A DNA stretch of 64,000 bases, taken from the NCBI GenBank assembly GCA_963717315.1, contig CAVQWA010000056.1:5960-69959 (forward strand). Reading direction: 5' to 3'. Within the stretch, counting starts at the first letter, position 1. Every line of letters starts with the position of its first letter. Below the pieces are notes generated by a model. That model was not told the origin of the DNA. It saw nothing but the letters and a program-made list of their open reading frames with translations, and ran no database searches. Positions 1,181 through 11,947 of this stretch are shown here, piece after piece. The position numbers and the translations under genes are program-made. This DNA is from an uncultured Gemmatimonadales bacterium. GTDB lineage: Bacteria > Gemmatimonadota > Gemmatimonadetes > Gemmatimonadales > GWC2-71-9.

Positions 1181-1762
1181 GTGGAGTTCGCCGGGAGCTT
1201 CCCCGACCCGCTCGTCCGCCTCGATCCCGCCCTGCCCGAGGTCGCCTTCGTCGGGCGCTCGAACGTCGGCAAGTCGAGCCTGATCAACCGGGTCCTCGGC
1301 CGGAAAGGGCTGGCCCGGGTCAGCCAGACCCCGGGCAAGACCACGCTCCTCAACGTCTACCGGCTCCCGGCGTTCTACCTCGTGGACCTGCCGGGCTACG
1401 GCTTCGCCAAGGCGAGCAAGCCGGAGCGCGCCGCCTACCGGCTGCTGCTGGAGCGCTACCTGCGCGAGCGCGCGTCCCTGGCCGGGGTGGTCTGGCTGCT
1501 CGACATCCGGCACGACCCGAGCGCCGAGGACGCCGGGTTCGGCGAGCTCCTGGCCGCCACCGGCGTGCCCACGCTGCCGGTGCTCACCAAGGGGGACAAG
1601 CTGGCCCAGGGCGCCCGGACGAAGCGCGCCCGGGAGCTGGGCCGGGCCCTCGGTGCGGAGGCCGAGCCCCCGCTCGTCACCAGCAGCAGCACCGGCCTCG
1701 GGATCGCCGATCTCGGGGCATCCATTCTCGCCGCCGTCGCCGGCGGAGGACCGACCCCGTGA
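1181..1762 (+). CDS. engB: ribosome biogenesis GTP-binding protein EngB/YsxC
   Basis: C-terminal part of the 2..1762 frame. G1 [10 protein letters not shown]3 DLPGYG, G4 TKGDK. GTG at 1181 is the first plausible start after the clpX stop; the start is uncertain. Confidence 0.85.
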
Positions 1763-2406
1763 AGCGCACCCTCCCGCTGCTCGTCCTCGCCGCGCTCGCC
1801 GCCTGCGCGCCGGCCACCCGGGCCCAGACGCCGGACGATCGCGGGGACACCCTCCACGACGCCGCGCTGCCGCCGGTCGGGTTCGGGACCCTCTCCCAGA
1901 ACGACGTCTCGGTGCTCCTCCGCGACGACGAGATCGAGCTCCGCTTCCTCCCGCTCGACGAGCGGGTGATCCGGCTGCTCGCCCCCGACGCCTACCAGGC
2001 GCTCTCGGCCCTGGTGCGCCAGAACCAGCCCGCCATCGATTCCATCGCGAGCAGCCGCGGCCTGAGCTCGCCGGGCCTCGCGCTGGTGACCTTCTACGGC
2101 CGGGTGCCACGCGCGCGCTTCGACCCGCAGCTGGTGTCGCTGCAGGTCCGCGGCCACCAGATCTTCCCGCTCGGGACGGTGCCGATCGGCCCCGGTTTCT
2201 CCAACCGGGAGCTCGGGGTGCGCGGCCAGGCCCGCGCGATCTTCGTGTTCGAGGAGATCGTGCCGGTGATCGAGCCGTTCACCCTGGCCTACGGGACCCA
2301 GCAGTCCGCCGCGTGGGAGAGCCGCATCCAGCTCCTCTCCCGCGAACGGGGTCGGGCCGTCCGCCGGGCCCAGGCGGCGGACACGACGGGGAGCGGGGAG
2401 CAGTAG
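1759..2406 (+). CDS. hypothetical secreted protein or lipoprotein
   Basis: GTG start overlaps the engB stop (GTGA). N-terminus [18 protein letters not shown] has a signal peptide and a lipobox-like AAC. No family recognised. Confidence 0.7.
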
Positions 2407-2409
2407 CCG

Positions 2410-2438
2410 GAAGAAGGGAGAGGGGAGAGGGGAGAGGG
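2410..2438. repeat. (GGGGAGA)n heptamer array, about 4 units
   Basis: gaagaagggagaggggagaggggagaggg lies directly after the stop at 2406. It has four G-runs (G-quadruplex-type pattern). Confidence 0.9.
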
Positions 2439-2462
2439 CCGCCCCACCGCCCCGAGTCACCG

Positions 2463-2921
2463 TCACGCCGGGTTCATCCCGTTCCCCGCTCCCCGTTCCC
2501 CGTTCCCCTGCTTCACCACCACCTGGTGCACCCCCAGCCCCAGGGCGAACACCACTCCCGTCCCGACGTGGATCCACTGCGCCACCGCCAGGAGCGGTGC
2601 TGCGGTGACCACCTGGATCAGGTAGCCCGTGAGCACCATCGGCGCGGTGGCGAGCACCGTCGTCACCCCGCTCCGCCGGCCCCATCCCACCCCCGACCGC
2701 CAGTGCCGCCAGATGTGACGGGTGGCGATCATCCCGATCGCGAAGAGCAGCAGCGGCGACACCACGATGTGCGCCTTCAGCACCACGGGCTGGAGCGGAT
2801 GGTTGATGACCGCCCACGGCTCGGCCGGCTCGAGGCCGTACTTCAGCCAGAGGTAGGCCAGCCCGGTCGCCACGGTGAGCAGCGAGGTCGTCCACACCGC
2901 CCAGCGCTCGAACCGGCTCAC
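2463..2921 (-). CDS. His-rich four-helix integral membrane protein (possible cytochrome-b/DUF4405-like redox subunit)
   Basis: Four hydrophobic segments with conserved-looking His (INHPLQ, KAHIVV, TRHIWRHW, WIHVG, GVHQVV). GTG start overlaps the upstream stop by 4 bp. The C-terminal GNGERGAGNG tail is encoded by a heptamer repeat. Confidence 0.7.
   Translation of the reverse strand: MSRFERWAVWTTSLLTVATGLAYLWLKYGLEPAEPWAVINHPLQPVVLKAHIVVSPLLLFAIGMIATRHIWRHWRSGVGWGRRSGVTTVLATAPMVLTGYLIQVVTAAPLLAVAQWIHVGTGVVFALGLGVHQVVVKQGNGERGAGNGMNPA
2478..2508. repeat. (CCCGTTC)n heptamer array, about 4 units (complement GGGGAAC-type)
   Basis: ccgttccccgctccccgttccccgttcccc. Partly complementary to the 2410..2438 array. 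Overlaps the 3' end of CDS 2463..2921. Confidence 0.9.
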
Positions 2922-3556
2922 CGGGCGTCCTCCGGGAACAGCACCGCGTGGAGCGCGAGCGCCCGGCGCGTGGCCGCCGTCACCGCCTCGGCGGTGAGGG
3001 TGGCGCCGGCGAGCGGCGGCACCCCGCCCCGGAGCGACAGCCCCTCGAGCGGCCGCCCCGCCAGCAGCGCGAGCCAGCCGGCCGGCGGCCGGTAATCGGG
3101 CGGCTCGTCGAACCGGAGCACCTCCACCCGCCGCACCGTGCCGCCGGGCGCCACCACGACCATCAGCACCTCGGAGAGGGTCCGCACCCGGTGCGCGTCG
3201 AAGTATGCCGTGCCCACCCGGGCACCATCCTTCCTGGCCACGTAGTACGTCACCACCGAGGGGGGCGCCACCGTGCCGCGGCCGGCCCTGGCCTGCACCG
3301 CCCCGAGCTGCGCCGGCGTCAGGAAGGCCGTCTGCCGCTCCACCTCGGCCCCGGGAAAGGCGAGCCGCAGCGCCTCGTCCTGGGTGAGGCGCTCCTGGGC
3401 GACGGCCGGCGTGGCCACGAGGGCGAGCATCAGGACGGCAGGGACGGCAGGGACGGCGAGACGGCGGGACGGCGGGTTGCGCCCCCCTCCCCGTTCCCCT
3501 CTCCCCTCTCCCTTCTCCCGTCTCACGTCTCCCGTCCCACTAGAAGAGGTACCCAA
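2918..3556 (-). CDS. exported FMN-binding domain protein (predicted ApbE flavinylation substrate)
   Basis: FMN_bind-like core with an AGATLT motif matching the (S/T)GA(T/S) flavinylation site. Has a SRRLAVPAVPAVLMLALVATPAVA-QE signal-like segment. Start ambiguous: TTG 3556, GTG 3526 or ATG 3430. The first ~30 codons are repeat-encoded. Confidence 0.75.
   Translation of the reverse strand: MGTSSSGTGDVRREKGEGRGERGGGRNPPSRRLAVPAVPAVLMLALVATPAVAQERLTQDEALRLAFPGAEVERQTAFLTPAQLGAVQARAGRGTVAPPSVVTYYVARKDGARVGTAYFDAHRVRTLSEVLMVVVAPGGTVRRVEVLRFDEPPDYRPPAGWLALLAGRPLEGLSLRGGVPPLAGATLTAEAVTAATRRALALHAVLFPEDAR
3432..3540. repeat. composite repeat block: (GGGACGGC)-like units followed by ~8 CCNTCTC-type heptamers
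   Basis: ggacggcagggacggcagggacggcgagacggcgggacggcggg ... cccctccccgttcccctctcccctctcccttctcccgtctcacgtctcccgtccc. Begins right at the porin stop codon. Confidence 0.9.
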
Positions 3557-4829
3557 GGTTCACGCTGAGCTGGTTCACCCCCGTGTCCGCCTCGTTGGCG
3601 TGCCACTGGTAGTCGGCCTTGAGCGCCACCTGCGGGATCGGCTTCCACATCGCGCCGAGCGAGACGACGGACCGCTCGTTCGCCGGGTCCCGCGCGAAGC
3701 CGGCCGGCACCTCGCGCTGGGTGTCGAGCCGCTCGTAGCGCAGGTAGGGGACCAGTTGATGCGAGGTGCGGGCGAAGCGGAGGACGTCGAACCCGCCCTG
3801 GAGGTACCAGCCGAGCGCCTCCTCGCCCACCGACTCCGCGCCGGCGAGCCCGTTGAGCTCGTTCACCTCCGCGGCGTCGTCGAGCGTGCTTCGCGCCACG
3901 AGTCCCCGGAGCTCGAGGCCGCCCCGACGGTATTCGGCGTGGCCCTCGAGGATCGTCGTCCGGGCGTCCACGACCACCGCGGGGTCGGACGGTAGGGTCG
4001 CCGCCTGCCCCGAGTTGCCGGCATACGCCGAGGCACCCAGCAGCAGGCCGGGCACGCCGGTCCAGTCCACCCGGCCGACGATCCCGAAGTCCTCCGCCAG
4101 CGAGTGCGACCCGTTCTGCCGCCCGCCGCGCAGGCCCGACGCGGTGAACCCCGCGGCGTCGAAGCCGGCCATCAGGTAGGCGCGCCAGGTGAAGTCGCCG
4201 AGGGACCCGAAGGCCCCGAGGCCGTTCTCCCGCCAGGTGGAGGGGATGATCTGTCGCTCGGTCTCCGGGCGCGCCGTGCCGAGGAAGACCGGTGGCTCGT
4301 GCAGCTCGTTGAGGAAGCCCATCGGGGCGAGGAGGAGGCCGCCGCGGAACCCGAATGCCGGCGAGAGGCGGTAGTCGAGGTAGGCGAACTCGACCGAGAC
4401 CTCGCCGCCTTCCCCGGTGGAGGCGTGCTCGAACTCGACCTCGGAGTTGAAGAGCAGCTTGTCGTTGAACTTGTAGCCGAAGTAGACGATGGCCCGGAGG
4501 TAGTCGAGCTCATCGAGCCGCCCGGAAGGCGCACCGTCCTCCCGTTCCGCGCCGAAGTTCTGGTAGAGGGCCTCGCCGTACCCGCCGATCGAGACGCCCT
4601 GGCGCACCCGGTAGACCTTCGACGCGGCCGGGCCGAAGCCCTCGGAGCTCGTATCCGCCTCCGCCACGACGTCCTTGCCGAGCTGCAATTCCTCGAGCGT
4701 GCGGGTGATCGCCTCGATCTGCTCCCGGAGCTTCCGGATCTCGGCGCTGTCGGCCTGCTGGGCGGCCGCGGGTGCGGCGGTGGCGAAGAGGGCGAGCGCG
4801 GCCAGGGCCGCGCGGGCAGGTCGGGACAA
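3540..4829 (-). CDS. outer-membrane porin-like beta-barrel protein
   Basis: TTG at 4829 gives the signal peptide MSRPARAALAALALFATAAPAAAQQ. A coiled-coil EIRKLREQIEAITRTLEELQ is followed by alternating beta-strand-like sequence ending in ...NLGYLF. The 772-aa ORF upstream of this point is an artefact. Confidence 0.75.
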   Translation of the reverse strand: MSRPARAALAALALFATAAPAAAQQADSAEIRKLREQIEAITRTLEELQLGKDVVAEADTSSEGFGPAASKVYRVRQGVSIGGYGEALYQNFGAEREDGAPSGRLDELDYLRAIVYFGYKFNDKLLFNSEVEFEHASTGEGGEVSVEFAYLDYRLSPAFGFRGGLLLAPMGFLNELHEPPVFLGTARPETERQIIPSTWRENGLGAFGSLGDFTWRAYLMAGFDAAGFTASGLRGGRQNGSHSLAEDFGIVGRVDWTGVPGLLLGASAYAGNSGQAATLPSDPAVVVDARTTILEGHAEYRRGGLELRGLVARSTLDDAAEVNELNGLAGAESVGEEALGWYLQGGFDVLRFARTSHQLVPYLRYERLDTQREVPAGFARDPANERSVVSLGAMWKPIPQVALKADYQWHANEADTGVNQLSVNLGYLF

Positions 4830-4831
4830 GG

Positions 4832-5758
4832 TCAGTGTGCTCCGGAAGGGGTGAAGGGGGAATGCAGCGTGACGCGCCCGTCGAGGGCCGCGCTCCACCG
4901 CGCGCGCGGCGCGGGCCCGTCCTCGAGGACGAGGATGCCCACGTCGGGATGCGTGGCGGCCCAAGCCAGGGCTGCGTCGGGGCCGAGCACGAAGAGCGCG
5001 GTGGAGAGGACGTCCGCGGCGAACGGGTCGACCGCCACGACGGTGATGCTGCCCCACGCCGGCGCGGGCCGCCCGGTGCGGGGGTCGAGCAGGTGACCGA
5101 TCGCAGCGCCGTTCACGACGACGCGGCGCTCGGACTGGGACGAAGTGGCGGCCGACCCGGTGATCCCGGCGATCGTGGCTGCGGGGCGATGCCGTTCGGC
5201 GGGATGGGCCACGAGGACGTCGCGCGGCGCGCCGGTCACGGCCACCTGCCCGCCGAAGTCGAGCATCGCGCCGAGGCCGCGCGCCCGGAGCGCGGCGAGC
5301 GCCGTGCGCAGGGCGAGCCCCTTGCCGAAGCCGCCCGAATCGAGCCAGGTGCGGGCATCGAGCCGGCGGAGGCAGGGGCCGGGACCGAGCTGCACGAGGT
5401 GCCATCCGGTCGCGGCGCGGGCGGCCTCGAGCTCGGCGGCCGACGGAACCCGCCCGGCGCCGCGGAGGTCCCACGCGTCCACCAGCGCCCCGATCGCGGG
5501 GTCGAACGCCCCGCCGGTGCGTTCCACCCAGTAGCCGGCCTCCGAGAGCGCCTCCGTCAGGCGAGTGGTGATCGTGACGCATTCCCCCACGGGGGCACGA
5601 TTCGCCCGCGCGAGCTCGGCCTCGGCGCGCCAGGTGGAGAGCACGGGCTCCCACCCTTCGACGGCAGCGAGGGCTTCCTCCGAGGCTGCGGCGGCCGCGG
5701 CGTGCGGTGCCCCGATCTCGATCCGGAGGGTCGTGCCCATCACCGCGGCCTCCCGCAC
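4832..5758 (-). CDS. apbE: FAD:protein FMN transferase ApbE
   Basis: Full-length ApbE-family similarity (MGTTLRIEI..., FDPAIGALVDAW, DSGGFGKGLAL, SSQSERRVV.NG..IGHLLDPRTG). GTG 5758 or ATG 5740 start. Confidence 0.9.
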   Translation of the reverse strand: MREAAVMGTTLRIEIGAPHAAAAAASEEALAAVEGWEPVLSTWRAEAELARANRAPVGECVTITTRLTEALSEAGYWVERTGGAFDPAIGALVDAWDLRGAGRVPSAAELEAARAATGWHLVQLGPGPCLRRLDARTWLDSGGFGKGLALRTALAALRARGLGAMLDFGGQVAVTGAPRDVLVAHPAERHRPAATIAGITGSAATSSQSERRVVVNGAAIGHLLDPRTGRPAPAWGSITVVAVDPFAADVLSTALFVLGPDAALAWAATHPDVGILVLEDGPAPRARWSAALDGRVTLHSPFTPSGAH

Positions 5759-5854
5759 GAAGGGTGCGGCGGCCGACTGGAGGAGGGCGGCGATGAGCGG
5801 GGCGGCGAGCAGGGGCGAATGAGGGAACGGGACGAGGATAAGTGAGAGCTATTC

Positions 5855-5873
5855 TCAAATGAAAATGACTATC
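5855..5873. promoter_or_regulatory. Fur-box-like site in an AT-rich island of the divergent apbE / acyltransferase promoter region
   Basis: tcaaATGAaAATgAcTATC matches 13 of 19 positions of GATAATGATAATCATTATC and contains a direct AAATGA AAATGA repeat. It lies in the only strongly AT-rich stretch seen in the window. Confidence 0.4.
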
Positions 5874-5977
5874 ATCCCATTGCCAAGTACTTTATTCGTG
5901 ATTCCATCCGCCGTCAACCGCGGCGTTTGCCTCCTCGCCCCCGGGGGTCTAGACTCCGGCGCTCAGGAGGCCTTCCC

Positions 5978-6829
5978 ATGCCATTGATGCCGCTTCGCAC
6001 CCTCACCCTGCCCCAGCCCGCCGCCGGCGCCTACGAGGCCTGGTTGGCCGAACTGGACGCCCGCCTCGGCGAGCCGGCGGCGGACTGGAACGCCATCTGC
6101 CGCGACACCCTCTTCCGGCTCTGGTACCCGGCCGAGTCGGACTGGGCGGCGCTGGTGGAGGACCCGGCCCTGCCCCTCGCGTCGCGCGCGGCGCTCCTCG
6201 CCCTCGACCCGCGCCACGTCACCCTCGAGCCGGAGTACTACGCGGACGTGGACCCGGTGAAGTTCGCCCGGGTGAAGCCGCTCCTCTGGCTCTGGTACTC
6301 GTTCGACCGCTCCCCCCTCGGCGGCCAGCACGTGGACCTCGGCGTGCGCTTCCGGCGGATGCTGGCGCCGCGGATCTTCAAGTCCTGCGGCGAGCGCTTC
6401 AAGTGCTTCCAGCACGTCGAGTTCTCCTACGGGTACAACCTCGAGGTGGGCGACGGCGTGGTGGTGCACCGCCACGTGCTGCTCGACGACCGGGGCGGCA
6501 TCCGGCTGGGCAACCGGGTGAGCGTGGCCGACTACGCCAACGTCTACAGTCACACGCACAGCATCGTGGACCAGGTGGACGTCACCCTGGCGAGGACGGT
6601 GCTCGACGACGACGTGCGCGTCACCTACCACGCCACGGTGCTGGCGGGGGTCCACGTGGGGGTGAACGGGATGGTCGGGGCGGGCGCGCTCGCCACCAAG
6701 GACGTGCGGCCCTACCACCTGAACGTGGGCGTGCCGGCCAAGTCCATCCGCGTGAAGCCGAATGCCCCGACGGAACTGGCGCGCACCGTGCGGACCGGCG
6801 GCGACGACGACGAGGACGACGACCGCTGA
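5978..6829 (+). CDS. hexapeptide-repeat (left-handed beta-helix) acyltransferase
   Basis: AGGAGG at 5965..5970 precedes ATG 5978. Hexapeptide repeats LEVGDGVVVHRHVLLDDRGGIRLGNRVSVADYANV...VGVNGMVGAGA. Acidic tail GGDDDEDDDR. Confidence 0.8.
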   Translation: MPLMPLRTLTLPQPAAGAYEAWLAELDARLGEPAADWNAICRDTLFRLWYPAESDWAALVEDPALPLASRAALLALDPRHVTLEPEYYADVDPVKFARVKPLLWLWYSFDRSPLGGQHVDLGVRFRRMLAPRIFKSCGERFKCFQHVEFSYGYNLEVGDGVVVHRHVLLDDRGGIRLGNRVSVADYANVYSHTHSIVDQVDVTLARTVLDDDVRVTYHATVLAGVHVGVNGMVGAGALATKDVRPYHLNVGVPAKSIRVKPNAPTELARTVRTGGDDDEDDDR

Positions 6830-6846: not shown

Positions 6847-8883
6847 GTGCTGGTGGCCGGCGCCACGCTGCTGGGCGCCGCCGCCCTCGGCCTCGGGGGG
6901 GCGTGGCGCCGCGAGCGTGCCGCCCGCCTGGCCGCGGAGGCGGACCGGGACCGGGCGGCGCGCGAGCTGGACCGGCGGCTGAACGAACTCTTCTCCCTCC
7001 GGGAGCTGGGCTACGCGCTCGCGGCCTCGCTCCAGCTCGACCGGCTGTCCCGCGAGGTGGTGCGTTACGCCACCCGCTTCCTCCGCGCCCGCGGCGCGAT
7101 GCTCCTCCTCACCGAACCGGACGCCCACGCCCTCCGCGTTGCCGCGGCCGAGGGGACGCTGCTGGCGCACGCCGGCCGCCTCCTGCCCGACGCCGACGAC
7201 ACCATCGTGCTCCGCGCCATCGGCGAGGAGCACCTCCAGGTGGCCGCCGCGTCCGCGGGCGAGCCGGTGCGGCTGGGCGGCGGGATCACGGTGCAGTCGG
7301 CGGCGGTGGTGCCGCTCCGGGCCCACGGGGTGATGATGGGCGCGCTGGTGGTGGTGGACCGGGAGGAAGGGCCCTTCACCCCCGAGGACCTCTGGCTCCT
7401 CTCCACCGTGGCGACCCAGGTGGCGGTGGTGGTGGCGAACAGCCGCTTCTTCGAGCTGATCCGGCAGGGGAAGGAGGCGTGGGAGTCCACCTTCGACGCG
7501 CTCACCGCGGGCGTGGCCATCCTCGACACCGCGGGCCGGGTGCGGCGCGCGAACCGCGCGCTGGGCCAGCTCGTCGGGCTGGGCGAGCCGGCGCTGGTGG
7601 GGCGGCCGCTCGTCGGGTTCCTCTTCGACGTGCCCGGCGCGGCCGGCGGCTTCCTGGAGGACGCGGTGGCGGGTCGGCGCGCCGATCCGCTGGTGACCCG
7701 CTCCGACCGGCTGGGCCGCCTGCTCCGGCTCAACGCCGCGCCGGTGCCCGAGGCCGCCGGCTCCGGGGCGGCGGTGGTGCTGGTCGAGGACGTGACGGCC
7801 CAGCGGCGGATCGAGGAGCAGCTCATCCAGGCCGACAAGATGGGCGCGGTGGGCCAGCTCGTCTCCGGCGTGGCGCACGAGCTCAACAACCCGCTCGCGA
7901 GCATCGCCGGGCTGGCCGAGCTCCTGCTCGAGCAGGCCCCCGCGGGGGACCGGAACCGCGAGCACCTGCGGGTGATCCACGAGCAGGCGGAGCGGGCGGG
8001 GCGGATCGTCCGGAACCTGCTGACCTTCGCCCGGACAGGCACGCCCGAGAAGGGCATCGTGGACCTGAACGACATCGGCCGCCGCTCCGCCCAGCTGCTC
8101 GCGTACGAATTCCGGCTGCGCGGCGTGACCTTCGAGGAGCGGCTCCACGCCGCGCCGGTCGAGGTCCGCGGCGACCCGCACGAGCTGCAGCAGGCGGTGC
8201 TCAACCTTCTCACCAACGCGAGCTGGGCGGTGAGCGCGGAAGGGGGGCACGCGGGCCCGCGGGTCGTGAGCCTCGAGACCGGCGCCGAGGCCGGGGAGGC
8301 GTGGCTCCGGGTGTCCGACTCCGGCCCGGGGGTGCCCGAGGACCACGTGACCGACCTCTTCACGCCGTTCTTCACCACGAAGCCGCCCGGCAAGGGCACC
8401 GGGCTCGGGCTGCCGATCAGCTACGGCATCGTGAAGTCGCACGGGGGCCGGCTGGGGTACGAACGCGCGCCGGGCGGGGGCGCGGCGTTCACCATGCGAC
8501 TGCCCGTGACGGGTGAGGCCAGCCTGCCGCGGGCGCCGGTGGTGCTGGTGGCCGACACCGACCCGTGGGCGCTCCGCACGGCAAGCGCCGTGCTCACCGC
8601 CGAGCACGCGCGGGTGGTGACCGCCGCCACCGCCGAGGCGGCCCTCGCCGCCGTCCGGCAGGAGCGGTTCGACCTGGTGGTGGCGGACGTCCGGCTCGCG
8701 CTCCCGTCCGGCGTCCGGTTCCTCGCGGTGCTCGCCGACCCGGCCCTCGCCCCGCGCGCGACCCTCGGCATCGGCGGACCGGCCGACGCCGTGCCCGCCG
8801 CCCCCACGCCCTTCGCGATGCTCGTCCGGCCGTTCAGCCCGCGCGAGCTGCGCGAGGCGGCGAGGAGGCTGATGGACGGCTGA
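6847..8883 (+). CDS. hybrid sensor histidine kinase (TM-GAF-PAS-HisKA-HATPase_c plus C-terminal receiver-like domain)
   Basis: H-box SGVAHELNNPL, N-box LLTNASWA, G-boxes DSGPGV and GKGTGLGL. C-terminal VLVADTD...DLVVADVRL...LVRPF receiver-like region. Start GTG 6847, or CTG 6826 overlapping the upstream stop. Confidence 0.85.
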   Translation: MLVAGATLLGAAALGLGGAWRRERAARLAAEADRDRAARELDRRLNELFSLRELGYALAASLQLDRLSREVVRYATRFLRARGAMLLLTEPDAHALRVAAAEGTLLAHAGRLLPDADDTIVLRAIGEEHLQVAAASAGEPVRLGGGITVQSAAVVPLRAHGVMMGALVVVDREEGPFTPEDLWLLSTVATQVAVVVANSRFFELIRQGKEAWESTFDALTAGVAILDTAGRVRRANRALGQLVGLGEPALVGRPLVGFLFDVPGAAGGFLEDAVAGRRADPLVTRSDRLGRLLRLNAAPVPEAAGSGAAVVLVEDVTAQRRIEEQLIQADKMGAVGQLVSGVAHELNNPLASIAGLAELLLEQAPAGDRNREHLRVIHEQAERAGRIVRNLLTFARTGTPEKGIVDLNDIGRRSAQLLAYEFRLRGVTFEERLHAAPVEVRGDPHELQQAVLNLLTNASWAVSAEGGHAGPRVVSLETGAEAGEAWLRVSDSGPGVPEDHVTDLFTPFFTTKPPGKGTGLGLPISYGIVKSHGGRLGYERAPGGGAAFTMRLPVTGEASLPRAPVVLVADTDPWALRTASAVLTAEHARVVTAATAEAALAAVRQERFDLVVADVRLALPSGVRFLAVLADPALAPRATLGIGGPADAVPAAPTPFAMLVRPFSPRELREAARRLMDG

Positions 8884-8939
8884 CGGGAAGGCGGGACGCC
8901 GGGAGGACGTGGAGTCACCCGTCTTCCCGTCCTTCCGTC
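8882..8939. repeat. imperfect GGGA-rich inverted repeat (hairpin) after the kinase stop
   Basis: gacgggaaggcgggacgccgggaggacg ... cccgtcttcccgtccttccgtc. The outer gacgg(g)aagg / ccttccgtc and inner cggga / tcccg segments pair. Confidence 0.6.
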
Positions 8940-9037
8940 ATCCAGTCTCTCCGCCTCTCCGCCCTCCCCCGTGACCCGGGCGTGACCGCCCCCCCGCGTC
9001 CCGCCACTCCGTGACCAGACCGTTGCAGGTACGTGGC

Positions 9038-9067
9038 CTCCCCGTCTCGCCCGCCGGGGAGCTTTTC
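9038..9067 (+). terminator. stem-loop with T-tract (terminator or leader attenuator upstream of the TonB-dependent receptor)
   Basis: ctccccg-tctcgcccgc-cggggag followed by cttttc. 7-bp stem, 10-nt loop, T4. Lies about 60 bp before ATG 9125. Confidence 0.35.
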
Positions 9068-9124
9068 GTGCGCGACCGGCACGACCCCGCGGCGGCCCGG
9101 ACGGCCGTCACACGAACGACTGCG

Positions 9125-11947
9125 ATGATGACGAACTTCCGGATCCAAGACGTGCCCCTCCGCGGGCTGGCCGCGGCGGCCGCTGCCCTCCTCCTGGCGC
9201 TCCCGGCCGCGGCGCAGGAGCCCGCCCCGCAGCGGGCCGCGACCACGCGCACGGGCCGGATCGTCGGCCGGGTGCTCGACGCGGCCACGGGCGGCCCGGT
9301 GGTCGGCGCGGTGGTCGAGGTCGTGGGCATCGTGGCGCCACCCCGCTCCACCTCGGGCGTGAACGGGCGGTACTCACTCGACGTCGTCCCGGTCGGGCCC
9401 ACCACCATCCGGGTACGGATGATCGGCTTCACGCCGAAGACGGTGACCGGCATCCTCGTCGCCGAGGGACGGGCGGTGGAGCAGGACCTGAGCCTGACCG
9501 CCCAGACGGTGGAGCTCGAGGAGGTGACCGTCACCGCCGCGGCGGAGCGGGGGACCGTGGCGCGCGCCCTCGACGAGCAGCGGACCGCACTCGGCGTCAC
9601 CAGCGCGATCACCGGCGAGCAGATCGCGCGGAGCCCCGACGGCGACGCCGCCGCCGCGGTCCAGCGGGTGAGCGGGGTGAGCGTCCAGGACGGGCGGTAC
9701 GTGGTGGTGCGCGGCCTCGGCGAGCGCTACACCCAGACCTCGCTCAACGGCGCCCGGCTCCCGAGCCCGGAGCCGGAGCGCAAGGTGGTGCCGCTCGACC
9801 TCTTCCCGGCGGGCCTCCTCCAGGCGATCCGGACCGCGAAGACGTTCACCCCCGACCTCCCGGGCGACTTTTCCGGCGCCCAGGTGGACATCCAGACCCG
9901 GGAGTTCCCGGCCCGGGGCCAGTTCACCTTCTCCGGGGGCACCGGGTACAACTCGGCGGCCACCGGGAGCAGCATCCTCGTCGCCCCCCGCGAGGCGGGC
10001 GACCTCCTCGCGCTCGGCGCGGGCGAGCGGTCCCTCCCCTCCCTCCTGCCGCGGTTCGGGAACTTCCAGGTCAGCGCGCCGACCCAGGAGGAGACCAACG
10101 CGATCGTCAACGACTTCCGGGACGTCTGGTCGCCGCGGCGGAACACGGGCGCGCCGAGCAGCTCGTTCGCGGCGTCGCTCGGCGGCACCGCCCCGGTCCT
10201 CGGCCAGCCGATCGGCCTCGTGGCCTCGGCCACCTACGGCCTCGCATGGGAGTCGCGCCAGGACCAGCGCCGGGCCCAGGCGATCCCCGGCTCCGAACCC
10301 GGCACCACGATGGAGAGCGACCACTTCAGCGGCAGATCCGGCACCGCGAGCGTGCTCTGGGGGGGGATCCTCAACCTGAGCACCTTCATCGGGACCGGCA
10401 CCCGGCTCGCGTTCAACAACACGCTCAACCGGAGCTCCGACAACGAGGCCCGCTTCGAGACCGGCTATTACGAGCAGTTCGCGCAGGACTTCCAGCTGGA
10501 GCGGCTCACCTACGTGGAACGGAGCATCCGGTCGAACCAGCTGATCGGCGAGCACCAGCTCGGTGACCGCCACCGGTTCGACTGGAGCCTCACGTCCGCG
10601 GGGGTGACCCGGGAAGAGCCGGACCGGTCGGAGGTCCTGTACACGCTCGACGCCACCGGCGCCGCCGCGCCCGCCTGGTTCAGCGCCTACACCGAGGGCG
10701 CGGTGCGGACGTTCGCCGCCCTCGACGAGTCGAGCCTCGAGGGCGCCGGCAACGTCCGGCTCCTCTTCGGCAGCCCGTCACAGCTCCACCAGCTCCGGGT
10801 CGGCGCCCTGTACCGTGCCACCGACCGGGATGCCGACAACAGCTCCTACGGCATCACCGCCAGCGCCCTCGCGACGGCGGACCGGGAGCTCGCGCCGGAG
10901 CAGATCTTCGACGGCCGCTTCGCCCAGCCGGGCGACGCCTTCTTCCGGATCGTCCCGCTGGGCGCGGGCGGCTCGTACACCGCCGAGGACCGGCTGGCCG
11001 CCGCCTACGCCATGGTGGACTACGCCCTCTCCAGCCGGCTCCGCTTCGTGGGCGGCGCCCGGGTGGAGCGGTCCGACGTCACCGTGGTGGCCGAGCCGAC
11101 CATCGGTGACGCGGTGACCGCCGACCCGTCGTACACCGACATCCTCCCGTCCGTGGCGCTCAACTACCAGCTCGCCGACAACCAGGTGCTCCGCCTCGCG
11201 GCCTCGCAGACCCTGGCCCGTCCGGAGTACCGCGAGCTGGCGAACGTGACCTACCGCGACGTGCTGGGCGGTGACGCGGTCCTTGGCAACGCCAACCTGG
11301 AGCGGACCCTGATCCAGAACGTCGACCTGCGCTGGGAGTGGTACCTCCAGCCGGGCGAGGTGATCAGCGTCGGGGTCTTCGCCAAGCACTTCGACAAGCC
11401 GATCGAGCGGGTCTACCTGGCGACCTCGGGCAGCCGGCTCATCTCGTTCCTCAACGCCGAGAGCGCCCGGAACCTGGGGATCGAGCTGGAGGTGCGGCGG
11501 GGCCTCGGATGGATCGCCGATCCCCTCGCCGGCTTCACCGCCTTCGGCAACGTCACGCTGATGGACAGCAACGTGGACTTCGGCCCGGGGTCGGGCGCCG
11601 AGATCGAGGACGACCGCGCCATGGTCGGGCAGTCGCCCTACGTGGTGAACCTGGGGCTCTCCTGGTCGGCGCCCGACGGGGGGCTGAGCGCCACGGCCCT
11701 CTACAACGTCCAGGGCCGCCGGGTCTCGAGCGCGGGCGAGTCCCCGCTCCCCAGCGTCTACGAGGAGGCGCGGAACGTCCTCGACCTCTCGCTCCGGGTG
11801 CCCATCGGCAACGGCGTCGCCCTCAAGGCCGACGCGCGGAACCTCCTCGACGACCCCTACGAGTTCACCCAGGGCTCGGTGGTGCGCGACACCTGGCGGG
11901 TGGGCCGCACCTTCGGCGTGGGGATCTCGTGGGGCGCCGGGCTCTGA
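9125..11947 (+). CDS. TonB-dependent receptor with N-terminal carboxypeptidase-regulatory-like domain
   Basis: ATG 9125 gives the signal MMTNFRIQDVPLRGLAAAAAALLLALPAAAQE. CarboxypepD_reg-like GRIVGRVLDAATGGPVVGAVVEV. Plug domain ITGEQIARSPDGDAAAAVQRVSGVSV. Long barrel. Confidence 0.9.
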   Translation: MMTNFRIQDVPLRGLAAAAAALLLALPAAAQEPAPQRAATTRTGRIVGRVLDAATGGPVVGAVVEVVGIVAPPRSTSGVNGRYSLDVVPVGPTTIRVRMIGFTPKTVTGILVAEGRAVEQDLSLTAQTVELEEVTVTAAAERGTVARALDEQRTALGVTSAITGEQIARSPDGDAAAAVQRVSGVSVQDGRYVVVRGLGERYTQTSLNGARLPSPEPERKVVPLDLFPAGLLQAIRTAKTFTPDLPGDFSGAQVDIQTREFPARGQFTFSGGTGYNSAATGSSILVAPREAGDLLALGAGERSLPSLLPRFGNFQVSAPTQEETNAIVNDFRDVWSPRRNTGAPSSSFAASLGGTAPVLGQPIGLVASATYGLAWESRQDQRRAQAIPGSEPGTTMESDHFSGRSGTASVLWGGILNLSTFIGTGTRLAFNNTLNRSSDNEARFETGYYEQFAQDFQLERLTYVERSIRSNQLIGEHQLGDRHRFDWSLTSAGVTREEPDRSEVLYTLDATGAAAPAWFSAYTEGAVRTFAALDESSLEGAGNVRLLFGSPSQLHQLRVGALYRATDRDADNSSYGITASALATADRELAPEQIFDGRFAQPGDAFFRIVPLGAGGSYTAEDRLAAAYAMVDYALSSRLRFVGGARVERSDVTVVAEPTIGDAVTADPSYTDILPSVALNYQLADNQVLRLAASQTLARPEYRELANVTYRDVLGGDAVLGNANLERTLIQNVDLRWEWYLQPGEVISVGVFAKHFDKPIERVYLATSGSRLISFLNAESARNLGIELEVRRGLGWIADPLAGFTAFGNVTLMDSNVDFGPGSGAEIEDDRAMVGQSPYVVNLGLSWSAPDGGLSATALYNVQGRRVSSAGESPLPSVYEEARNVLDLSLRVPIGNGVALKADARNLLDDPYEFTQGSVVRDTWRVGRTFGVGISWGAGL

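What the first reader, a model, noticed from the sequence alone, without database searches (positions are those of the whole stretch)
2463..5873. Putative Fur-controlled operon: ApbE flavin transferase, porin, exported FMN-binding protein and His-rich 4-TM protein
Four co-oriented genes form a tight unit, with a 2-nt gap between apbE and the porin gene and a GTGA overlap between the last two.
- apbE.
- A porin-like barrel.
- An FMN_bind protein carrying the AGAT flavinylation-type motif.
- A small membrane protein with several conserved-looking histidines.
They lie behind the only AT-rich island in the window, which contains a 13/19 match to the Fur box. ApbE-flavinylated FMN-binding proteins are known components of periplasmic and extracellular electron-transfer systems such as NQR, RNF and Listeria PplA/FmnB. 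Pairing one with a dedicated porin and a possible haem-b-type subunit under iron control suggests an envelope ferric-reductase or electron-export module.
Basis: partly seen in the sequence, partly recalled or inferred. Interest (0 to 1): 0.65.

Follow-up and report, generated by a model that had tools for sequence, protein, structure and literature searches.

The report
Iron-regulated flavin electron-transfer porin operon
This is a four-gene operon (flavin-attaching enzyme ApbE, a dedicated outer-membrane porin, an exported flavin-binding protein and a small histidine-bearing membrane protein) behind a conserved iron-regulator (Fur-type) binding site, and it most likely reduces iron in the cell envelope so that soil bacteria can take it up.

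Summary
All four minus-strand genes exist, with the stated 2-nt gap and GTGA overlap. They lie behind the only AT-rich island of the window (33% GC against 73.6%).

- **Gene identities:** ApbE is a solid Pfam hit. The "porin" models as a 16-stranded barrel that matches OmpC/OmpF/OprP. The FMN_bind protein carries AGAT, where its family has an invariant TGAT(LT). The 4-TM protein has no Pfam family but has four near-invariant histidines (H51, H69, H118, H132).
- **Conservation:** The gene set recurs in about 80 Gemmatimonadota loci. In Acidobacteriota the order is permuted and the 4-TM protein is fused to ApbE.
- **Operator:** A Fur-family palindrome, TTGAGAATGGTTCTCAAT(CTCA), precedes the first gene in 58 of 62 loci. 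The window has a weaker double version. The same site precedes an FTR1 iron permease next to one cluster. The exact 18-mer precedes FeoA, FeoB, P19, FTR1, TonB-dependent receptors and fur genes in metagenomes.
- **Wider module:** Porin plus FMN_bind plus a small membrane protein also occurs next to P19 or an FNR-like reductase in two other lineages.

Best reading: an iron-starvation-induced chain (membrane cytochrome-b-like protein to flavinylated periplasmic protein) that reduces ferric iron, with a dedicated channel. Haem binding, flavinylation and Fur control are inferred, not shown. It is a new variant of the known flavinylation-associated systems.

The parts
5838..5897 (.). AT-rich island (33% GC) in the apbE / acetyltransferase-like intergenic region
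   Evidence: It is the lowest-GC 60-mer of the window. The next lowest is 50% and the window mean is 73.6%.
5889..5917 (-). Sigma-70-like promoter candidate: -35 TTGACG (5917-5912), 17-nt spacer, -10 TAAAGT (5894-5889)
   Evidence: It is the only promoter-like match in 2300-6100, against 0.0 expected from shuffles. The region is almost identical in the closest relative L007.
5860..5874 (.). Operator half A: TGATAGTcATTTTCA, matching 12/14 of the Bacillus-type Fur 7-1-7 box.
   Evidence: One search gives the matches. The PWM score is 18.6-20.4 bits.
5843..5857 (.). Operator half B: TGAGAATaGCTCTCA, matching 12/14 of the family consensus TGAGAATnATTCTCA. It aligns with the operator of the orthologous loci.
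   Evidence: The consensus TTGAGAATGGTTCTCAAT(CTCA) is found in 58 of 62 loci.
4832..5758 (-). apbE (FAD:protein FMN transferase), 308 aa from GTG 5758. The true start is probably upstream.
   Evidence: Pfam ApbE at E=9e-54. Orthologues are 345-359 aa with N-terminal hydrophobic segments.
5759..5848 (-). In-frame upstream stretch encoding a signal-like hydrophobic segment (LLAAPLIAALLQSAAAPF), with no ATG, GTG or TTG
   Evidence: Read directly. The alignment with L007 shows 11-nt and 3-nt indels here and a conserved CTG.
3540..4829 (-). Dedicated outer-membrane porin, 429 aa: signal peptide, N-terminal helix (residues 27-47), 16-strand barrel and a highly conserved loop between strands 5 and 6 (NELHEPP...RPETERQIIPSTWRENG)
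   Evidence: AF2 model. Foldseek matches to OmpC/OmpF/OmpM1/OprP at E 1e-14 to 1e-11. The remote homologue in L178 hits Porin_O_P at E=8e-8.
2918..3556 (-). Exported FMN-binding-domain protein, 212 aa as called. The signal peptide ends ...ATPAVA|QE.
   Evidence: Pfam FMN_bind 19.7 bits, below threshold. Orthologues carry PF04205. Family alignment.
2999..3010 (-). Predicted flavinylation motif AGAT (residues 183-186), with T186 as the predicted FMN-attachment residue
   Evidence: The family has TGATLT at 90% or more across 81 sequences. The [S/T]GA[S/T] motif is from PMC8238504.
2463..2921 (-). 4-TM inner-membrane protein, 152 aa, candidate dihaem cytochrome b, with conserved H41, H51, H69, H118 and H132
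   Evidence: AF2 pLDDT 90.6 with four helices. His conservation across 149 cluster representatives. Fusions to ApbE.

Best explanation
This is a Fur-family-repressed operon, probably induced by iron starvation, that encodes a short electron-transfer chain across the cell envelope.

1. The 4-TM inner-membrane protein is proposed to bind two b-type haems. One would lie near the periplasm (H51 + H118) and one near the cytoplasm (H69 + H132). It would take electrons from the quinol pool across the membrane. This step is inferred.
2. ApbE covalently attaches FMN to T186 of the exported FMN-binding protein (AGAT here, TGAT in the family). This is inferred from the motif, the gene linkage and the 4-TM::ApbE fusions.
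3. The reduced flavoprotein reduces ferric iron (chelated or otherwise) in the periplasm. The dedicated 16-strand porin, whose inward-folding loop is acidic, His-bearing and highly conserved, lets the iron substrate or product cross the outer membrane. This is inferred.
4. Ferrous iron is then imported by a separate transporter, such as the FTR1-family permease that carries the same operator or follows the operon in two relatives.

Shown here: gene identities and folds, conserved linkage across two phyla, the conserved operator, and the operator's association with iron-uptake genes.
For: **Components.**
- ApbE.
- Porin fold.
- FMN_bind with an invariant TGAT(LT).
- 4-TM bundle with H51 149/149, H69 148/148, H118 141/145 and H132 140/145 across 50%-identity representatives.
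- H118 and H132 are 14 residues apart on helix 4. The positive-inside rule puts loop 2 (5 Arg) in the cytoplasm.
- The highest-probability structural match of the 4-TM model is the E. coli hydrogenase-1 cytochrome b; cytochrome b6 also appears. Neither is significant.

**Linkage.**
- FMN_bind lies directly upstream of the 4-TM gene in 77/77 loci.
- The porin lies upstream in 69/70.
- apbE is adjacent in 57/63.
- Acidobacteriota have porin - FMN_bind - 4-TM::ApbE, with a fifth TM helix before the ApbE domain.

**Regulation.**
- The operator is present in 58/62 loci.
- Outside the clusters, about 0.9 Mb of these loci holds only two further sites of 13 bits or more. The strong one (31.6 bits) sits directly in front of an FTR1 permease in L045.
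- An FTR1-like gene follows the 4-TM gene co-directionally in L075.
- The exact 18-mer lies upstream of FTR1, FeoA, FeoB, P19, an ABC-transporter binding protein, TonB-dependent receptors, a cupredoxin and two fur-family genes.

**Wider module.** Porin + FMN_bind + small membrane protein occurs beside P19 (L185) and beside an FNR-like reductase and a FecR-domain protein (L178), each with the exact box.

**Precedent.** Flavinylation clusters are linked to iron reduction and assimilation and to Fur repression (PMC8238504). DUF4405 was shown to bind haem b (PMC10979944). Periplasmic ferric-siderophore reduction followed by FeoAB import is described in Bradyrhizobium (PMC10760861 abstract).
Against: - No haem-binding, flavinylation, reductase or expression data exist for any member.
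- The 4-TM family matches no Pfam family. Across the 27 aligned 4-TM family members there is no DUF4405 hit, and Ni_hydr_CYTB appears once at E=0.35. It has no PDB sequence relative and no significant Foldseek hit (best E=0.58).
- The window's own operator is weak: 17-20 bits against 28-48 in the training set.
- The window's motif is AGAT, not [S/T]GAT.
- Its apbE lacks a canonical start for an export signal.
- No iron transporter or fur gene lies in the window.
- Only 2 of about 80 loci have an adjacent FTR1.
- The same 18-mer also precedes ZnuA-family genes in some contigs, so the box does not by itself specify iron.
Confidence: 0.5

Rival explanations
1. Electron export rather than periplasmic reduction. 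The flavoprotein reduces a diffusible shuttle (free flavin or quinone), or it docks at the porin. Electrons then leave the cell through the porin to reduce extracellular ferric minerals, and ferrous iron diffuses back in. This would be a flavin-based counterpart of porin-cytochrome conduits.
For: A dedicated porin is strictly linked to the flavoprotein in four lineages. Soil and sediment Gemmatimonadota and Acidobacteriota meet insoluble Fe(III). Listeria PplA is an extracellular FMN_bind electron donor (PMC8238504).
Against: The barrel has 16 strands with an inward-folded loop, like general diffusion porins. From general knowledge of the Mtr system, that is far smaller than the 26-strand MtrB sheath that encloses a protein. 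There is no CxxCH motif and no Cys at all in the porin, FMN_bind or 4-TM proteins. No surface-exposed redox partner is encoded.
Confidence: 0.12
2. The 4-TM protein is not a cytochrome. Its membrane-embedded histidines form a metal path (Fe2+ or other cation uptake), or the protein supplies FAD to periplasmic ApbE. The flavoprotein would then receive electrons from elsewhere.
For: There is no homology to any haem protein family. A few members give weak CopD-like hits, best E=0.008. Fusion to ApbE would also fit a role in cofactor supply. The cluster encodes no other iron importer.
Against: The His pattern is the signature of bis-His dihaem bundles: four near-invariant residues, two per level of the membrane, and two of them 14 residues apart on one helix. 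It is also the criterion used to recognise DUF4405, MsrQ-like and PepSY-like cytochromes. A 152-aa four-helix bundle is small for a transporter. Without it the cluster has no route for electrons across the membrane.
Confidence: 0.12
3. The operator is bound by a different Fur-family paralogue (Zur, Mur or PerR). The module would then serve another envelope redox task, such as zinc or manganese acquisition or oxidative-damage repair, rather than iron reduction.
For: Fur-family boxes are alike. Variants in L065, L082 and L207 (TGAAAATGATTATCA / TGAAAATGATTTTCA) resemble Zur boxes recalled from actinobacteria (from memory). The exact 18-mer also precedes ZnuA-family genes and a His-rich ABC ATPase.
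Against: Within the same phylum the only other strong site precedes an FTR1 iron permease. Most annotated targets of the exact 18-mer are iron-specific: FeoA, FeoB, P19, FTR1 and TonB-dependent receptors. Module relatives sit beside P19 and FecR.
Confidence: 0.12
4. Iron sparing. Under iron limitation the flavinylated protein replaces an iron-rich periplasmic electron carrier in respiration, in the way flavodoxin replaces ferredoxin.
For: The idea is raised in PMC8238504. Control by an iron-type operator fits it.
Against: It does not explain the strictly linked porin, the FTR1 and P19 neighbours, or the use of a probably haem-containing membrane partner.
Confidence: 0.06

Closest known systems
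PepSY-like / DUF2271 / DUF4198 flavinylation clusters (Meheust et al. 2021, PMC8238504)
   Same: They combine ApbE, an exported flavinylated protein and a His/haem membrane electron carrier. They are implicated in iron reduction and assimilation. They are Fur-repressed in Shewanella and Caulobacter, and some include outer-membrane TonB-dependent receptors.
   Different: Here the membrane partner is an unrelated 4-TM family with no Pfam model. The substrate is an FMN_bind protein, not DUF2271. The outer-membrane component is a 16-strand diffusion-type porin, not a TonB-dependent receptor.
DUF4405-ApbE clusters and the FezC ferrosome cytochrome (PMC10979944)
   Same: A small membrane protein next to apbE was recognised as a cytochrome by four conserved membrane histidines and was shown to bind haem b.
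   Different: DUF4405 is described there as a six-transmembrane structure and occurs in Proteobacteria and Firmicutes. The present family has 4 TM helices and fails the DUF4405 HMM: no hit among the 27 aligned 4-TM family members, and one ApbE fusion at 17.2 bits against a cut-off of 26.7. It comes with a porin.
P19/FTR1 iron-uptake clusters with an FMN_bind protein (PMC8238504)
   Same: An FMN_bind protein is associated with a ferrous/ferric uptake system. A relative of this module lies next to P19 behind the same box (L185). FTR1 lies next to the cluster in L045 and L075.
   Different: In the window and in most loci no P19 or FTR1 is linked. The porin and the 4-TM protein are not part of the described P19 systems.
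Four-helix dihaem cytochromes b of the FdnI / HyaC type (PF01292)
   Same: Both are four-TM bundles. One helix carries two His 14 residues apart (a feature of FdnI recalled from memory). Hydrogenase-1 cytochrome b is the highest-probability Foldseek match.
   Different: There is no sequence-level membership and the structural match is not significant. The second cytoplasmic-side His lies on helix 2 here.
Bradyrhizobium FsrB + FeoAB periplasmic ferric-siderophore reduction (PMC10760861)
   Same: The logic is the same: ferric iron is reduced in the periplasm by an inner-membrane-linked reductase, and a separate ferrous transporter then imports it.
   Different: The proteins are different, no flavinylated intermediate is described in that abstract, and entry there is through TonB-dependent receptors.
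Phosphate-selective porins OprO/OprP (PF07396) and general 16-strand porins
   Same: The fold is the same. A remote family member reaches the Porin_O_P gathering score.
   Different: The window protein itself has no Pfam hit. It has an N-terminal helix and a family-specific conserved inner loop. It is under an iron-type operator.

Membership tests
ApbE (PF02424) extracytosolic flavin transferase | ApbE domain above Pfam threshold | tested here: met
   183 bits against a cut-off of 25.6.
ApbE (PF02424) extracytosolic flavin transferase | Export signal or membrane anchor that places it outside the cytosol | tested here: inconclusive
   Orthologues have N-terminal hydrophobic segments. The window encodes one in frame but without an ATG, GTG or TTG start.
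FMN_bind (PF04205) ApbE substrate | FMN_bind domain above Pfam threshold | tested here: inconclusive
   The window protein scores 19.7 bits against a cut-off of 22. Orthologues in L001 and L002 and relatives in L178 and L185 pass.
FMN_bind (PF04205) ApbE substrate | [S/T]GA[S/T] flavinylation motif | tested here: inconclusive
   The family has TGATLT at 90% or more. The window has AGATLT: the acceptor Thr is present but the first position is Ala.
FMN_bind (PF04205) ApbE substrate | Covalent FMN actually attached | not testable with these tools
   This needs a UV-fluorescent gel or mass spectrometry.
DUF4405 (PF14358) flavinylation-associated cytochrome | HMM match | tested here: not met
   No hit among the 27 aligned 4-TM family members. 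One ApbE fusion scores 17.2 bits against a cut-off of 26.7.
DUF4405 (PF14358) flavinylation-associated cytochrome | Six-TM architecture | tested here: not met
   The AF2 model has four helices. The six-TM description is from PMC10979944.
DUF4405 (PF14358) flavinylation-associated cytochrome | Four conserved membrane histidines; association with apbE | tested here: met
   for the histidines.
Prokaryotic cytochrome b561 / Ni_hydr_CYTB (PF01292) | HMM match | tested here: not met
   One of the 27 aligned 4-TM family members at E=0.35.
Prokaryotic cytochrome b561 / Ni_hydr_CYTB (PF01292) | Four-helix TM bundle resembling solved members | tested here: inconclusive
   6g94_A gives probability 0.77, TM-score 0.52 and E=0.65.
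Any haem-b cytochrome | Haem binding | not testable with these tools
   No coordinates or cofactor modelling were available. This needs spectroscopy.
16-strand diffusion porin (OmpC/OmpF/OprP type) | 16-strand barrel with an inward loop between strands 5 and 6; signal peptide | tested here: met
   The signal peptide is read.
Porin_O_P (PF07396) | HMM match | tested here: not met
   The window protein has no hit. The remote homologue in L178 scores 32.3 bits against a cut-off of 20.9.
DUF3570 flavinylated outer-membrane protein | [S/T]GA[S/T] motifs in the barrel protein; HMM match | tested here: not met
   The porin has no such motif and no Pfam hit.
Fur regulon member | Fur-box-like palindrome at the promoter | tested here: met
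   13/19 and 12/14 matches lie immediately downstream of a -10-like hexamer.
Fur regulon member | Site conserved in orthologous promoters and shared with iron-uptake genes | tested here: met
Fur regulon member | Fur binding and iron-dependent expression | not testable with these tools
   No fur gene lies in the window or the flanks. This needs EMSA or RNA-seq.
Porin-cytochrome conduit (MtrAB / Pcc type) | Multihaem c-type cytochrome partner; large barrel | tested here: not met
   There is no Cys or CxxCH in the porin, FMN_bind or 4-TM proteins, and the barrel has 16 strands.

The most novel reading that the evidence does not exclude
The cluster is the type example of an undescribed reductive iron-acquisition pathway of Gram-negative soil and sediment bacteria.

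- It would use a new family of 4-TM dihaem-like membrane proteins, with about 930 clusters at 50% identity, no Pfam model, and fusion to ApbE in Acidobacteriota.
- That protein would feed a flavinylated periplasmic reductase.
- The reductase would work with a dedicated porin family (at least 7000 relatives), whose conserved acidic and His-bearing inner loop would make it an iron-specific channel.
- The porin + FMN_bind core recurs with interchangeable membrane partners in at least four lineages, always behind a Fur-type box.
Probability: 0.4. Interest if true: 0.75.

Novelty: new variant of a known kind. Interest (0 to 1): 0.6.

Why it matters
Flavinylation-based electron transfer outside the cytosol is a recently recognised and widespread theme, but its membrane entry points and outer-membrane partners are only partly catalogued.

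- **New candidates.** This locus adds a candidate sixth or seventh class of transmembrane electron carrier. It also adds the first dedicated porin linked to such a system, with unusually clean comparative evidence for iron control.
- **Poorly known phyla.** Gemmatimonadota and Acidobacteriota are abundant in soil but poorly cultured, and how they acquire iron is largely unknown. A defined four-gene module with a defined operator gives a directly testable hypothesis.
- **A usable regulon probe.** The operator PWM is highly specific in these GC-rich genomes. It could be used to map the Fur regulon of the phylum.

Tried and rejected
**4-TM protein.**
- Pfam and NCBIfam on the 4-TM protein and on all 27 aligned family members found no family.
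- A profile search against PDB sequences found nothing.
- Foldseek against PDB gave no significant hit.

**RNA element.** Rfam on 2300-6100 found no riboswitch, and in particular no FMN riboswitch.

**Local regulator or transporter.** I looked for a fur gene and for FTR1 or FeoB in the window and found none.

**Alternative readings of the porin.**
- A DUF3570-like flavinylated barrel is rejected because the porin has no motif.
- A porin-cytochrome conduit is rejected as a membership claim because there is no Cys or CxxCH and the barrel has only 16 strands.

**L075.** An apparent 929-aa 4-TM-FTR1 fusion ORF is a frame artefact of high GC. The two genes are adjacent but separate.

**Recurrent metagenome hit.** The largest group of exact-motif hits (26 contigs, L090 type) lies between convergent genes and is not a promoter site, so I discounted it.

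**Source contig.** A look-up of the window's own contig through the exact 4-TM protein found it not on record.

**Literature.** Searches for this gene combination found no description.

Full report
**1. Observation.** The window is 73.6% GC.
- The 2-nt apbE/porin gap and the GTGA overlap of the last two genes follow directly from those coordinates.
- Upstream lies the only AT-rich island of the window. Positions 5838-5897 are 33% GC, and the next lowest 60-mer is 50%.
- The 13/19 Fur-box match is at 5861-5879.

**2. The proteins.**
- **ApbE** is unambiguous: PF02424, E=9e-54.
- **The second gene** has no Pfam or NCBIfam hit.
  - Its AlphaFold model (pLDDT 74, pTM 0.75) has a signal peptide, an N-terminal helix and 16 strands.
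  - It matches OmpC, OmpF, Omp-Pst, OmpM1 and OprP at E 1e-14 to 1e-11 with probability 1.0.
  - A full-length remote homologue (L178, BLASTP 2e-31) reaches the Porin_O_P gathering score.
  - The most conserved segment of the family is the loop between strands 5 and 6: NELHEPPVFLG..RPETERQIIPSTWREN, mostly invariant. It is recognisable even in a 27%-GC relative. In general porins this position is the inward-folding constriction loop (established knowledge).
- **The third protein** scores just below the FMN_bind threshold, 19.7 against 22 bits, but its orthologues pass.
  - In 81 family members TGATLT is at least 90% conserved. The window has AGATLT and its closest relative has TGATLT.
  - This is the [S/T]GA[S/T] ApbE target motif (PMC8238504). 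No other protein of the cluster has it.
- **The fourth protein** is a confident four-helix bundle with pLDDT 90.6.
  - It has no family assignment, no PDB sequence relative and no significant fold match. The highest-probability hits are hydrogenase-1 cytochrome b and cytochrome b6.
  - A profile search of 1.84 billion representatives finds 930 clusters.
  - Among the best 149 of those clusters, H51 (149/149), H69 (148/148), H118 (141/145), H132 (140/145) and the loop residue H41 (141/147) are conserved. H73 is not.
  - The charge distribution puts loop 2 (5 Arg) in the cytoplasm. H51 and H118 then lie near the periplasmic face and H69 and H132 near the cytoplasmic face. H118 and H132 are 14 residues apart on helix 4.
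  - This is the classic layout of a bis-His dihaem cytochrome b. That is an inference; haem binding was not tested.

**3. Linkage.** A scan of one genome per species found 383 loci that encode the 4-TM protein. The best 80 are all labelled Gemmatimonadota apart from two oddly labelled bins. Among 80 distinct loci:
- FMN_bind lies directly upstream of the 4-TM gene in 77/77 with room.
- The porin lies upstream in 69/70.
- apbE lies directly upstream of the porin in 55/63 and directly downstream of the 4-TM gene in 2/63.

Flanking genes differ between lineages, so the unit is conserved in its own right.

Eight of the listed representatives have the 4-TM domain at the N-terminus of a much longer protein. 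In seven of these the extra part is an ApbE domain, and a fifth hydrophobic helix lies between the two. That helix places ApbE in the periplasm, which agrees with the predicted N-in/C-in topology. Their loci, some labelled Acidobacteria, read porin - FMN_bind - 4-TM::ApbE, and all parts are homologous to the window's proteins.

**4. The operator.** Translations upstream of apbE in the orthologues showed a recurring DNA word in all three frames.
- The word is TTGAGAATGGTTCTCAAT(CTCA), a palindrome of the Fur-family 7-1-7 type: TGAGAATnnTTCTCA against TGATAATnATTATCA.
- At 22 bits or more it lies within 500 nt upstream of the first gene in 56 of 62 loci, and between apbE and the porin gene in 2 more.
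- When apbE is absent or downstream, the site sits directly upstream of the porin gene.
- Outside the clusters, about 0.9 Mb of these loci holds only two sites of 13 bits or more.
  - The strong one (31.6 bits) overlaps the start of a 640-aa FTR1-family iron permease in L045.
  - A homologous FTR1-like gene follows the 4-TM gene on the same strand in L075.
- The window and its closest relative L007 carry a diverged double site instead: 5860-5874 TGATAGTcATTTTCA and 5843-5857 TGAGAATaGCTCTCA.
  - These score 17-20 bits, reached by about 0.1-0.3% of composition-matched shuffles.
  - They lie immediately downstream of the only promoter-like match of the region, -35 at 5917-5912 and -10 at 5894-5889.
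  - This segment is almost identical in L007, while the adjacent coding sequence has diverged.
- No Rfam family matches.

- It returned sites in front of FTR1, an iron-type ABC binding protein, FeoB, FeoA, P19, two TonB-dependent receptors, a cupredoxin, an MtrC-like cytochrome, two fur-family genes and an FMN_bind gene.
- It also returned sites in front of ZnuA-family genes and a His-rich ABC ATPase.
- One group of 26 contigs is a non-promoter occurrence.
- The word is therefore a Fur-family box used mostly for iron genes. Zur or another paralogue cannot be excluded from sequence alone.
- No fur gene lies in the window or the flanks.

**6. A wider module.** Two of those contigs carry relatives of the porin and the FMN_bind protein next to the exact box.
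- **L178 (55% GC):** the porin homologue is divergent from an FMN_bind gene (ITGAT motif). A 201-aa membrane protein, an FNR-like NAD-binding reductase and a FecR-domain protein are also present.
- **L185 (27% GC):** P19 lies behind the box. Convergent with it are a porin homologue, an FMN_bind gene (DGISGATLS motif) and a 159-aa membrane protein.
- The two small membrane proteins are homologous to each other (E=4e-10) but unrelated to the 4-TM family.
- The conserved core is therefore porin + flavoprotein, with interchangeable membrane partners.

**7. Mechanism and rivals.**
- **Best-supported model.** The operon is iron-starvation-induced. Electrons pass from quinol through the 4-TM protein (two haems b) to the ApbE-flavinylated periplasmic protein, which reduces ferric iron. 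The porin admits the substrate or the product, and import is by a separate transporter such as FTR1.
- **Precedents.** These are the Fur-repressed PepSY-like/DUF2271 clusters and the P19-FMN_bind clusters (PMC8238504), the haem-b DUF4405 proteins (PMC10979944), and periplasmic ferric-siderophore reduction before FeoAB import in Bradyrhizobium (PMC10760861).
- **Rivals.** These are electron or shuttle export through the porin, a non-haem role for the 4-TM protein (metal path or FAD supply), control by another Fur-family paralogue, and iron sparing.
- None of the biochemical steps has been shown.

**8. Novelty.** Literature searches found no description of this gene combination. The 4-TM family fails the membership tests for DUF4405 and cytochrome b561, and no dedicated porin is part of the catalogued flavinylation systems. 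I therefore file it as a new variant of a known kind, with moderate to high interest.

Noticed in passing
window 5738-5858 (minus strand): The start of apbE is anomalous. The first canonical start (GTG 5758) gives a protein with no export signal, and that codon is GTC in the closest relative L007. The in-frame upstream stretch encodes a hydrophobic signal-like segment but has no ATG, GTG or TTG. Relative to L007 there are 11-nt and 3-nt indels that shift the frame of the TTG at 5858. A CTG (5812-5810) is conserved in both. The cause could be a non-canonical start, an assembly indel or a decaying gene.
   Followed up: partly
window 5927-6829 (+): A divergent 300-aa protein with a C-terminal hexapeptide-repeat acyltransferase domain shares the operator-containing intergenic region. 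Homologues lie divergently upstream of the cluster in 20 of the related loci, so it may be co-regulated. Alternatively this is only lineage synteny.
   Followed up: partly
window 1759-2406 (+): A 215-aa secreted protein with no family is convergent with the 4-TM gene. Homologues lie next to the cluster in 18 related loci.
   Followed up: no
window 2410-2513: A long hairpin-like inverted repeat spans the convergent gene ends and gave weak Rfam miRNA-precursor hits on both strands. It may be a bidirectional terminator. The simple terminator scan found no T-tract terminator.
   Followed up: no
window 3460-3556 (minus strand): The called TTG start of the FMN_bind gene overlaps the porin gene by 17 nt and adds a Gly/Arg-rich stretch of about 30 aa before the signal peptide. 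tblastn matches to orthologues mostly begin later, so the true start is probably further downstream.
   Followed up: no
L002, L005, L010 and about 10 other loci (about 1 kb upstream of apbE); L115 1080-2090: A twin-arginine-signal aldo/keto reductase (about 333 aa) is divergently transcribed from the operator region in about 13 Gemmatimonadota loci. A TAT-signal aldo/keto reductase also lies just downstream of the exact operator word in metagenome contig L115; it is only weakly similar to the L002 one (24% identity). It may be a further regulon member.
   Followed up: partly
L178 3818-7785; L185 3143-6016: Two unrelated lineages (55% and 27% GC) have a second version of the module: porin + FMN_bind + a different small membrane protein with a TH(x)H motif. 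It lies next to an FNR-like reductase and a FecR-domain protein (L178) or next to P19 (L185), each with the exact Fur-type box.
   Followed up: partly
L045 5893-7815 (-); L075 about 7150-9298 (+): An FTR1-family permease with a roughly 320-aa N-terminal extension of unknown fold lies beside the cluster. In L045 it has its own operator copy. In L075 it lies directly after the 4-TM gene on the same strand.
   Followed up: partly
L090, L098, L100 and about 23 other metagenome contigs: The exact 18-mer recurs in a conserved context (TGCATGAATTGAGAATGGTTCTCAATATCGTTTG) between an MFS-like gene and the 3' end of a BamD-like lipoprotein gene in a roughly 65% GC organism that is common in many samples. 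Its position is not promoter-like.
   Followed up: partly
P0355 (445 aa): One representative joins the 4-TM domain to a Phenol_MetA_deg outer-membrane-channel domain. It may be a gene-call fusion of neighbouring genes, or a lineage in which a different barrel protein replaces the porin.
   Followed up: no
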